From NCBI GenBank assembly GCA_963714015.1, contig OY970223.1, positions 1,376,001-1,440,000 on the forward strand: a stretch of DNA of 64,000 nucleotides, in the 5' to 3' direction. The notes below the pieces were generated by a model that did not search any database, was not told the origin of the DNA, and worked only from the letters and a program-made list of their open reading frames with translations. Source of the DNA: Vulcanimicrobiota bacterium (GTDB taxonomy: Bacteria; Vulcanimicrobiota; Vulcanimicrobiia; Vulcanimicrobiales; Vulcanimicrobiaceae). Position numbers and translations under genes: made by a program. Below are positions 15,282 to 18,861 of the stretch, in pieces (the stretch's first letter is position 1; every line of letters starts with the position of its first letter).

Positions 15282-17144
<1,863 letters not shown>

Positions 17145-17267
17145 TAGATTGTCTCTCTTTCCGAGCCCATGGACCAGCCGTACTCACTTCCGCTGCGCTA
17201 CAGTGACGGAGGTGAACTTGGCCTTGCCGCTTACTGAGCTACAAGGATTACTGCGTGCCGCTAATAG

Positions 17268-17292
17268 TACGACATCGGCCCGCTTCTGTTCC
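17268..17292 (-). promoter_or_regulatory. Candidate ECF-sigma promoter for dnaK
   Basis: Minus strand GGAAC-N16-CGTA. Confidence 0.5.
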
Positions 17293-17329
17293 AGATCTTT
17301 AGACAGAAATTTGACTGCGGAGGTTGCGC

Positions 17330-17638
17330 AATCGCCTCCGCTGACGCTACGGCAGTAATCGCCTCCGCTAGCGCTACGGCGAGAAGGTACTTTTAAAGAG
17401 CGCCCTTACTGGGCGCCCGCCCTTGGGGCGGGTCTGCTTCGCAGATGGGCCTAAGACGGCTTGTTGGCCTTGCCGCCGGCTCTAGGAAGAAAAAAGGAGC
17501 GGCTGTTTGCCACCCCTTTTTGTTAGCGCTTTCCCTCGGTTGTCCGCGAACGCGGACCCGCCGGGTGTTAGGCGGCCGGCCAATAAGGCCGGGTCTTTCA
17601 ACCTACCTTCTCGCCGTAGCGCTAGCGGAGGCGATTAC
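17330..17638. repeat. REP/REPIN- or MITE-like structured element with 35-bp perfect terminal inverted repeats
   Basis: GTAATCGCCTCCGCTAGCGCTACGGCGAGAAGGTA at 17355-17389 and its exact reverse complement at 17604-17638. A degenerate third copy lies at 17330-17353. Eight internal hairpins. Confidence 0.8.
17487..17521 (-). terminator. Intrinsic terminator (possibly bidirectional) downstream of htrA
   Basis: Minus strand AAAAAGGGGTGGC-AAACA-GCCGCTCCTTTTTTCTT; the two mismatches are G-U pairs only on the minus strand. Confidence 0.65.
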
Positions 17639-18861
17639 GGCTGCTCCGGCATCTGCTGTTGCTGCTGCAACTGGTCGGGCTTTGCTCCGAGCGTAACGGT
17701 AACGAGACGGCGGCTGCCGGTGCTCTGGTCCCAAATCTGGAGCGTCACTTTATCACCCGCTTTCAGCTTGCCGACGGCGTCCATGAGCGTGCTCGGATCG
17801 CTGTACGACTTTCCGTTCATTTGGAGGATGACGTCGCCGGGGTTCAAGCCCGCCTGGTCGGCCGGCGTGCCCTGGATGACCTGCTGAATTCCGACGCCTC
17901 CCGAGTCCCGATAGCCGGTCTGGCTGCGGAAGCCGTTGTCGACAGCCGTGAGCGCCACACCGAGGAATGCCTGCGCGGGCGGCATCGTGATGCCCGGATG
18001 AGCGATCATCTGCTCGGCGTCTTTCCGTACGAGGTTAGAGGGGATGGCAAAACCGATGCCTTCGGCGCCGCCGCGCAGCGTCGACTGATTGACGCCGATG
18101 ACGTTGCCCTCGATGTCGACCAGCGGTCCGCCCGAGTTGCCCGGATTAATGGGTGCGGAAGTCTGAAGCAGACCTTTGAAGGTGATAGTCTGCCCCGCCT
18201 CGTTCTGAATCGGCTCCTGCCGGTCGAACGCGGAGACGACACCGACTGTAACGGACTGCTGCAACTCGTACGGTTCGCCGATAGCGATCGCCCACTGCCC
18301 TTGCTCCAGACGGTCCGAGTCCGCCAAACTAAGCGGAGGCGGCAGATTGCTTGTGCCGACGCGGATAATCGCCAAATCGGCTCCGACGTTCTCGGCGATG
18401 ATCCTCGCCGCTTCGTGCCGTCCGTTCCCGAAGACGACGGTGATGTTGCTCACTTGCGAGCCGGGAATCGGCGGCCGCACGACGTGAGCGTTCGTGACGA
18501 TGTCGCCGTTGCGGTCGAAGACGAATCCCGAACCGGAGTCCTTGCCTTTGAACGGCTGAGCGACGCTCGGAGGCGCGCCGCCGAACATCTGCGAGAACGG
18601 ATCGGTCGGCTGGTAAATTTGGCCGTTCACGGTGACGTCGATGGCAACCACCGATGGTTTCACCCGCTTGACGGCATTCACGATACGATCTTGGTCGCTG
18701 CCGCCGCCGTTCAGCGGCGCGGCGCTGACCGCCGGAGGAGTATCATTCGGACCGGCTGCGTTCGTGAAATGGCTGCTCGCGTAGAGCATCATGACGAACG
18801 AGCCGACGACTGCGCCCACCAAAGCGACGATCGCGGTGGGCAATACACGATTTCTCAACAT
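17635..18861 (-). CDS. htrA: HtrA/DegP-like serine protease with one PDZ domain
   Basis: GSGFV, TNAHVV, DLAII, INPGNSGGPL, C-terminal PDZ, N-terminal membrane anchor. Confidence 0.93.
   Translation of the reverse strand: MLRNRVLPTAIVALVGAVVGSFVMMLYASSHFTNAAGPNDTPPAVSAAPLNGGGSDQDRIVNAVKRVKPSVVAIDVTVNGQIYQPTDPFSQMFGGAPPSVAQPFKGKDSGSGFVFDRNGDIVTNAHVVRPPIPGSQVSNITVVFGNGRHEAARIIAENVGADLAIIRVGTSNLPPPLSLADSDRLEQGQWAIAIGEPYELQQSVTVGVVSAFDRQEPIQNEAGQTITFKGLLQTSAPINPGNSGGPLVDIEGNVIGVNQSTLRGGAEGIGFAIPSNLVRKDAEQMIAHPGITMPPAQAFLGVALTAVDNGFRSQTGYRDSGGVGIQQVIQGTPADQAGLNPGDVILQMNGKSYSDPSTLMDAVGKLKAGDKVTLQIWDQSTGSRRLVTVTLGAKPDQLQQQQQMPEQP

What the first reader, a model, noticed from the sequence alone, without database searches (positions are those of the whole stretch)
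17330..17638. Mirror-symmetric multi-hairpin element with perfect 35-bp terminal inverted repeats between htrA and dnaK
Seen: 17355-17389 and 17604-17638 are exact reverse complements, with a degenerate third copy at 17330-17353. Just inside each repeat, read inward on opposite strands, is the same module: AAAGA followed by three abutting hairpins. Plus-strand arm: CGCCC-TTACT-GGGCG, CCCGCCC-TTG-GGGCGGG, TCTGC-TTC-GCAGA (17401-17445). Minus-strand arm: CCGGCC-TTATT-GGCCGG, CCGCC-N8-GGCGG, GTCCGC-GTTC-GCGGAC (17592-17542). Stems differ but stay paired, while loops 1 and 3 (TTAYT, TTC) are kept, which looks like compensatory change. A terminator-like hairpin sits in the centre. Known: GTAG-plus-palindrome units are typical of REPs processed by HUH (RAYT) transposases, and GCGAAGC (hairpin 3, minus strand) is an unusually stable DNA mini-hairpin. 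Inference: a non-autonomous REPIN/MITE-like element, or a structured RNA or ssDNA signal selected on both strands. No enzyme for it is in this window.
Basis: partly seen in the sequence, partly recalled or inferred. Interest (0 to 1): 0.8.

Follow-up and report, generated by a model that had tools for sequence, protein, structure and literature searches.

The report
Orphan hairpin-doublet mini mobile element
The mirror-image hairpin element between htrA and dnaK is real and is one copy of an uncatalogued repeat family scattered between genes of soil Vulcanimicrobiota; it likely works as folded single-stranded DNA and is likely spread by a tiny nuclease whose gene was not found in this genome.

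Summary
The 35-bp inverted repeats, the third copy and the six inner hairpins are all there. The element occurs once in this genome, is missing from the same site in 29 relatives, and belongs to a multicopy intergenic family of Vulcanimicrobiota, mostly as inward-facing pairs (19 of 32 sites). The conserved unit is the end hairpin: covarying outer stem, GNA/GNNA loop of the DNA mini-hairpin type (73 of 79), and a fixed tail. Three inner hairpins and the TTAYT loop are not family constants (4 of 176 each). It fails the GTAG-REP/RAYT test (no Y1 transposase in 5 of 5 carriers), the Ssn motif (0 of 215) and Rfam. The same hairpin core lies beside tRNA-linked mini GIY-YIG genes in another phylum (8 of 14 loci), but that enzyme was not found in the host family. 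The scan noted hairpin/GIY-YIG pairs before on other DNA, not this stretch. Verdict: new variant of REPIN-like DNA; mobiliser inferred.

The parts
17330..17353 (+). Outer tandem copy of the end hairpin (loop variant, no tail)
   Evidence: nhmmer E 0.0016; tandem end copies are common in the family
17355..17389 (+). Left end: hairpin 17359-17382 (5-bp outer stem, 3x3 internal loop, GC-GNNA-GC cap on the opposite strand) plus conserved tail 17383-17389
17400..17446 (+). Left inner cassette: extra hairpin, hairpin A and GTC..GAY hairpin B, abutting
   Evidence: junction and hairpin B recur in the family
17447..17541 (.). Central spacer with an intrinsic-terminator-like hairpin (17491-17521, A-run before and T-run after on the minus strand)
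   Evidence: (I6); function untested; not listed by the scan
17542..17592 (-). Right inner cassette: extra hairpin, hairpin A and GTC..GAC hairpin B, abutting
17604..17638 (-). Right end: same hairpin plus tail; overlaps the htrA stop codon (17635-17637)
17171..17201 (+). Degenerate fourth copy of the end hairpin, inside the variable stem of the dnaK leader; G007 has an intact copy at the same place
17268..17327 (-). Conserved host boxes just left of the element (GCAAC 17327-17323, GTCTAA 17304-17299, GGAAC 17292-17288, CGTA 17271-17268), read as two ECF-sigma-type promoters
   Evidence: conserved in relatives; the ECF reading is recalled, not tested
17635..18861 (-). htrA-like serine protease gene (host flank)
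   Evidence: ORF; name from own knowledge of its motifs; syntenic with dnaK in relatives
15282..17144 (-). dnaK (host flank)
   Evidence: ORF; name from own knowledge; 88-99% identical matches in 37 of 40 relatives

Best explanation
The element is a gene-less, REPIN-like pair of hairpin ends from a Vulcanimicrobiota repeat family, sitting between the htrA stop codon and the dnaK upstream boxes; it likely acts as folded single-stranded DNA and was likely spread by a small GIY-YIG nuclease supplied from elsewhere. Shown: each end is an oriented unit of conserved leader plus hairpin (covarying outer stem, GTA/GGA internal loop, GNA or GNNA cap), followed inward by A/T-rich bases and variable abutting hairpins. 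Ends occur alone, in tandem, or facing each other across about 100 to 2500 bases, and they crowd against stop and start codons. Inferred: the purine-loop strand folds when DNA is single-stranded; a nuclease of the tRNA-linked K(S/T)GSG GIY-YIG group, which lies beside the same hairpin core in another phylum, would nick beside the foot as SsnA does at its own hairpin; repair and template switching would then copy ends, duplicate them and flip the interior; selection would keep only copies that spare genes and promoters. No such gene was found in this genome, so this copy is likely an orphan whose present effect, if any, would be on the htrA 3' end.
For: Insertion: stop-to-GCAAC distance 307 nt here against 54 and 70 nt in the two congeners; none of 29 other htrA-dnaK loci shows the element (read by eye; DNA search 0 of 60). 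Family: 17 of 401 phylum genomes match, up to 23 copies, reversed control 0-2 per genome; 51 loci in 185,579 genomes, 46 titled Vulcanimicrobiota or Eremiobacteraeota; 99 metagenome loci. Doublets at 19 of 32 sites in three genomes. Covariation: outermost pair 23 same, 36 changed on both sides, 2 broken of 61; next pair 47, 12, 2; 0 of 500 shuffles. DNA signature: with the loop left free 73 of 79 matches in three genomes have G(N)1-3A on the outward strand (reversed control 5); tetraloops split 19 GNRA to 23 GNYA; GCGNAGC and GCGNNAGC are DNA mini-hairpins and the RNA form is much weaker (PMC13037366). Either strand enters mRNA. Rearrangement: tandem end arrays, cargo of 1.1 and 2.5 kb and opposite interior orientation at the metK site in L179 and L341 against L194 and L327. 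Enzyme lead: 12 of 14 K(S/T)GSG GIY-YIG loci hold a tRNA gene and 8 of 14 the sibling hairpin or its 3' half; one such genome has 175 sibling hairpins.
Against: No nuclease gene was found beside this family's own ends: 0 of 30 and 0 of 51 GIY-YIG loci from the host family (the sets overlap), no GIY-YIG by tblastn in any carrier locus, no nuclease or transposase among 57 neighbouring ORFs scanned out of 105 clusters (the other 48 judged by eye). The K(S/T)GSG group was not found in 296 host-family genomes by one query; the profile's hits in 112 of 320 genomes scored weakly (best E 9e-15) and those inspected lacked the motif; none in this genome. The sibling hairpin has a different tail and loop. 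Six of 14 nuclease loci lack it. Inner-hairpin GNA triloops show no strand bias (15 against 11 of 58). With G-T pairs and a mismatch allowed, chains of three or more inner hairpins are barely above shuffles (34 against 26 of 176). Many family copies sit at orthologous sites in related genomes, so counts are not independent and part of the spread is inheritance. No excision, empty allele within a population or cleavage was observed.
Confidence: 0.55

Rival explanations
1. Same repeat family, but moved by another, unidentified enzyme or by host repair and template switching alone, with no dedicated GIY-YIG nuclease.
For: The cognate gene was not found in any host-family genome searched; the tail differs from the sibling hairpin's; tandem arrays and inversions can arise from slippage and recombination between inverted repeats.
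Against: The invariant internal loop and leader look like a protein-recognition site and are shared in core with hairpins beside mini GIY-YIG genes; MAGs of 64-99% completeness often miss repeat-flanked genes.
Confidence: 0.25
2. A domesticated RNA-level element: the hairpins are kept because they end or stabilise transcripts and because the GGAGG in the hairpin or the G(A/G)AGG tail serves as a ribosome-binding site.
For: Foot within -1 to 15 nt of a stop codon in 41 of 137 arrays against 66 of 3000 random positions; first start codon 3-5 nt from the foot in 20 of 137 against 89 of 4000, which puts GGAGG at ribosome-binding-site spacing; many copies lie in ribosomal-protein and other housekeeping operons.
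Against: The loop class is GNA/GNNA without GNRA bias; the well-folding strand is antisense in the after-stop copies; 384 of 401 phylum genomes have no exact match; a start within 20 nt is hardly above background (30 of 137 against 647 of 4000).
Confidence: 0.12
3. A canonical REPIN moved by a RAYT (Y1 HUH transposase).
For: Inverted doublets with variable spacers and singlets, as in PMC3116915 (passages); GTAG occurs in the repeat.
Against: GTAG lies inside the hairpin; PF01797 absent from 5 of 5 carriers of 83-99% completeness while the control rang in 6 of 14 genomes.
Confidence: 0.05
4. A pair of back-to-back primase signals (phage G4 origin or ssiA/ssiB type) selected on both strands.
For: Abutting hairpins on opposite strands; mini-hairpins occur in G4 origins and ssiA (PMC13037366, passages).
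Against: Chromosomal intergenic copies with no replicon context; no plasmid match; no exact viral match; three-hairpin arms in only 4 of 176 modules.
Confidence: 0.03

Closest known systems
REPINs and GTAG-tagged REPs with RAYT/TnpA-REP (PMC3116915, passages; PMC3733652, parts 1-2 of 8, passages and 4 supplements searched, figures not held; PMC6006769, passages)
   Same: Short imperfect hairpins between genes, as inverted doublets, singlets and tandem clusters; conserved ends, variable spacer; no coding capacity.
   Different: GTAG is not an unpaired foot; no Y1 transposase in carriers; ends carry a conserved inward tail and cassettes of abutting hairpins; copy number is low (1-12 sites per genome examined).
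NTS / Ssn-related motifs with Ssn GIY-YIG single-strand nucleases (PMC11893778, parts 2, 4, 5 of 11 and passages)
   Same: Oriented hairpin with a conserved non-palindromic leader; candidate partner is a single-domain GIY-YIG nuclease; hairpin-gene-hairpin units exist in this host family for another repeat.
   Different: The SRM pattern matches 0 of 215 end copies; the host family's GIY-YIG genes are flanked by a different, TGTC-type repeat; the candidate partner is another, tRNA-linked group ending in K(S/T)GSG.
Hairpins beside tRNA-linked mini GIY-YIG genes (seen here in L441-L454; the label SLX1-like/cd10449 is recalled, not tested; not found described in searches)
   Same: Core GCCTYCGC-loop-GCTWCGG with the same 3x3 internal loop; multicopy in genomes (175 in G442).
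   Different: Different tail and longer, more varied loops; tied to tRNA 3' ends and a nuclease gene, which this family is not.
Bacterial MITEs (TIR-bounded, DDE-transposase-moved; as summarised in PMC3733652, part 1)
   Same: Size about 150-350 nt, inverted ends, strong folding, intergenic.
   Different: No target duplication seen at this site; ends also act alone and in tandem; interior varies freely and flips.

Membership tests
GTAG-REP / REPIN with RAYT | Unpaired terminal GTAG followed by a 6-13 bp stem | tested here: not met
   GTA lies in the 3x3 internal loop; the covarying stem starts 5 nt before it; definition from PMC3733652
GTAG-REP / REPIN with RAYT | Inverted doublets forming hairpins between genes | tested here: met
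   19 of 32 sites in three genomes; this locus
GTAG-REP / REPIN with RAYT | Y1 HUH transposase gene in the genome, flanked by the repeat | tested here: not met
   PF01797 in 0 of 5 carriers, 83-99% complete
Ssn-related motif (SRM/NTS) | Match to the published degenerate SRM pattern | tested here: not met
   0 of 215 end copies and none in 17101-17700; the pattern also caught only 1 of 30 TGTC-type GIY-YIG loci, so it is narrow
Ssn-related motif (SRM/NTS) | Repeat flanks a single-domain GIY-YIG gene | tested here: not met
   0 of 30 and 0 of 51 host-family GIY-YIG loci, overlapping sets
Ssn-related motif (SRM/NTS) | Strand-specific cleavage of single-stranded DNA next to the hairpin | not testable with these tools
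   needs purified enzyme
Hairpins of tRNA-linked K(S/T)GSG GIY-YIG genes | Core GCCTYCGC-loop-GCTWCGG with 3x3 internal loop | tested here: met
Hairpins of tRNA-linked K(S/T)GSG GIY-YIG genes | Nuclease gene in the carrier genome or family | tested here: not met
   0 of 296 by one query; weak, motif-less hits by profile; none in own genome; incomplete genomes limit this
MITE (DDE type) | Terminal inverted repeats | tested here: met
MITE (DDE type) | Target-site duplication | tested here: inconclusive
   none visible at this site; congener spacers are too diverged to define an exact empty site
MITE (DDE type) | Full-length IS with the same ends | tested here: inconclusive
   none among neighbours or cargo examined; DDE families were not searched genome-wide
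Any Rfam family | Score at the gathering threshold | tested here: not met
   0 hits in the window; best weak hit E 0.19, half its threshold

The most novel reading that the evidence does not exclude
A third class of miniature selfish DNA in bacteria, beside RAYT/REP and Ssn/SRM: mini-hairpin-capped ends read as single-stranded DNA by an uncharacterised tRNA-linked GIY-YIG nuclease, landing precisely at stop codons and ribosome-binding sites, bringing their own GGAGG, capturing genes between two ends and flipping their interior at conserved sites such as metK.
Probability: 0.25. Interest if true: 0.7.

Novelty: new variant of a known kind. Interest (0 to 1): 0.4.

Why it matters
How short palindromic repeats without a RAYT spread is an open question; Ssn nucleases supplied one candidate in 2025. 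This family gives a second, sharply defined substrate (covarying stem, fixed internal loop, DNA mini-hairpin cap, oriented leader) and a named candidate enzyme group, so the link can be tested with oligonucleotides and an 80-residue protein. If true it would add a new site-specific single-strand nuclease specificity and a route by which repeats remodel stop codons, terminators and ribosome-binding sites of core operons. If the link fails, this is one more lineage-specific repeat and this copy is an ordinary relic.

Tried and rejected
Rfam: nothing. Other copies in the own genome: only this locus by blastn, mismatch scan and profile. Exact repeat in viral contigs: 0; looser patterns gave 26 and 48 mostly single hairpins without a GIY-YIG by tblastn. 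Plasmids: no real match to the element or to the K(S/T)GSG query; the Ssn-like query gave 27 records, not followed. GIY-YIG queries in viral contigs: none confirmed. Cargo ORF between ends in L188: no Pfam family; cargo in L312: none. NCBIfam named none of three GIY-YIG proteins. tRNA-Ser(GGA) duplication in the own genome shares a 13-mer with hairpin 3 of the left arm, but carries no nuclease gene here or in 39 related loci; likely chance or a separate element. No RNA holder listed. X2 and X3 did not cover the element. Loop tally (220 of 225 G..A) is partly circular because most loci were collected with those bases fixed; one search is the fair test. Left out of family tallies: own-genome loci, L038, L044, L050 (likely chance matches), L157, L164, L178, L360 (other phyla); 14 arrays at contig edges; 4 of 14 K(S/T)GSG loci (broken or partial) left out of alignment A2. 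Paper searches for a description of this hairpin or of its pairing with GIY-YIG genes found none; subscription journals, figures of PMC3733652 and supplements of the other papers were not seen.

Full report
Observation. Both strands fold far better than shuffles (z -11.6 and -13.3). The right repeat overlaps the htrA stop codon; the left end stops 2 nt short of a GCAAC box conserved in most relatives of the same family. A fourth, decayed copy lies at 17171-17201. A soil-run contig of depth 3 covers 17317-17476 with two substitutions and one extra base, one substitution restoring the family's GTC..GAC closing pair and one breaking the 35-bp identity; it may come from the source sample, and no contig spans the element.

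It is an insertion. The htrA-dnaK order is conserved. The stretch from stop codon to GCAAC is 307 nt here, 54 and 70 nt in the two congeners, and none of 29 other loci shows the element (by eye; 0 of 60 genomes by DNA search). Other genomes carry other repeats at this site (L008, L021, L031), and G007 has one intact end hairpin in the dnaK leader. The genome holds no further copy.

It belongs to a family. The core pattern matches 17 of 401 phylum genomes (15 of 296 in the host family), up to 23 times each. With the tail added it gives 51 loci among 185,579 genomes, 46 titled Vulcanimicrobiota or Eremiobacteraeota, and 99 metagenome loci. In three rich genomes 19 of 32 sites are inward-facing pairs. 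Pairs span 97-357 nt; two span 1.1 and 2.5 kb and enclose unrelated genes. Ends are often repeated in tandem. At the metK site the interior runs one way in L179 and L341 and the other way in L194 and L327.

What is conserved. The end hairpin: outer pairs covary through all four Watson-Crick types (206 of 225 copies; 36 and 12 double changes among 61 rows, 0 of 500 shuffles; kin inflate these counts). With the loop left free, 73 of 79 matches in three genomes have a G(N)1-3A cap on the outward strand. Tetraloops show no GNRA preference (19 against 23). GCGNAGC and GCGNNAGC are DNA mini-hairpins, much weaker as RNA (PMC13037366; abstract start and passages). A G(A/G)AGG(T/A) tail follows, then A/T-rich bases, then variable hairpins. 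Two abutting perfect inner hairpins occur in 43 of 176 modules against 2.3 in shuffles, three in only 4 of 176, and a TTAYT-like loop in 4 of 176; under looser pairing rules the excess nearly vanishes. Hairpins 2 and 3 of each arm match the family's hairpin A and GTC..GAC hairpin B; hairpin 1 is an extra.

Where copies sit. The foot lies within -1 to 15 nt of a stop codon in 41 of 137 arrays against 2.2% of random positions, and 3-5 nt from a start codon in 20 of 137 against 2.2% (crude ORF caller; orthologous sites counted more than once). In the first case mRNA carries the pyrimidine-loop strand, in the second the purine-loop strand, whose GGAGG then falls at ribosome-binding-site spacing. 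That either strand is transcribed, while one strand alone has the stable cap, argues for selection on DNA (inference).

The enzyme. No Y1 transposase in 5 of 5 carriers. Small GIY-YIG genes are common in the family but are framed by a different, TGTC-type repeat, never by this one (0 of 30; 0 of 51). That pairing resembles the Ssn system (PMC11893778, parts 2, 4, 5 and passages; the paper came to me through earlier scan notes); its SRM pattern matches 0 of 215 end copies. A genome of another phylum holds 175 hairpins with the same core but another tail, and its 84-residue GIY-YIG gene lies between tRNA genes among such hairpins. Of 14 loci of this K(S/T)GSG group, 12 hold a tRNA gene and 8 the sibling hairpin or its 3' half; one is from the host's phylum (L441). 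The group was not found in the host family (0 of 296; only weak hits without the motif among those inspected) or in this genome. Neighbouring ORFs are housekeeping or unknown.

Mechanism. Shown: an inserted, gene-less pair of oriented hairpin ends from a dispersed, rearranging family. Inferred: folding as single-stranded DNA, nicking by a mini GIY-YIG nuclease by analogy with SsnA, spread by repair and template switching, survival at gene borders. I put about 0.85 on the element class, about 0.75 on DNA-level selection, and 0.55 on the whole including a GIY-YIG mobiliser. Here it is likely an orphan; any present role would be termination or protection of the htrA 3' end, untested.

Comparison and novelty. 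It works like a REPIN or an Ssn-type repeat but fails the membership tests of both. Eight paper searches found no description; figures and most supplements were not visible, and the GTAG family consensus list of PMC3733652 is in a figure I could not see. PMC1564403 (passages) covers prokaryotic Slx1-like proteins without mention of such repeats in the passages shown. The scan noted hairpin-flanked and tRNA-anchored GIY-YIG elements, and repeat families in Eremiobacterota, before on other DNA; look-ups by this sequence found nothing. New variant of a known kind; interest 0.4.

Unpublished genomes. G021 and G023 are among the empty-site and leader comparisons; G360, G392 and G446 are among the end-hairpin tallies; G023, G030, G402, G414 and G048 appear in search tallies.

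Noticed in passing
window 17150-17250, minus strand (dnaK 5' leader): Conserved motif in the dnaK leader of the host family and order (CCT..AGC..TAAGCGGCAAGG, variable stem, CTGGTCC..CTCGG); 14-sequence fold gives 13 pairs, 4 with double changes; no Rfam hit. Candidate undescribed cis-regulatory RNA; its variable stem takes up repeats.
   Followed up: partly
window 17268-17327, minus strand: Two conserved box pairs upstream of dnaK that look like tandem ECF-sigma promoters (recalled consensus); the element stops just short of them.
   Followed up: no
G000 C1:776163, 1369321, 1564856, 2342231, 2834671, 3413746, 3501946 and further blast hits: A second, unrelated multicopy structured repeat of about 140-200 nt: long perfect outer stem of variable sequence around a conserved branched core.
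   Followed up: partly
L507 (G000 C1:2550375-2550760); also L509, L521, L544, L545: tRNA-Ser genes followed by sense and antisense copies of their own 3' half with hairpins between; no integrase or nuclease gene seen.
   Followed up: partly
L256-L285, L455-L506: Small GIY-YIG genes framed by inverted and tandem TGTC-type repeats throughout the host family, an Ssn-like arrangement that the published SRM pattern mostly misses (1 of 30).
   Followed up: partly
L179, L341 against L194, L327 (metK site): Interior of the doublet in opposite orientations at one orthologous site; L327 and L341 come from one metagenome assembly.
   Followed up: partly
L358, L359: Tandem arrays of the end module fill several spacers of the ribosomal-protein operon (before rpsE, rpsN-rplE, rplX) in one contig.
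   Followed up: no
L172, L170, L178, L371: Single end hairpins between tightly coupled genes (rpsL-rpsG, hypA-hypC, rpsH-rplF by my reading), where the tail falls at ribosome-binding-site spacing.
   Followed up: no
L188 1953-3073; L312 2501-4995: Facing ends enclose one and two genes of no Pfam family: candidate cargo capture.
   Followed up: partly
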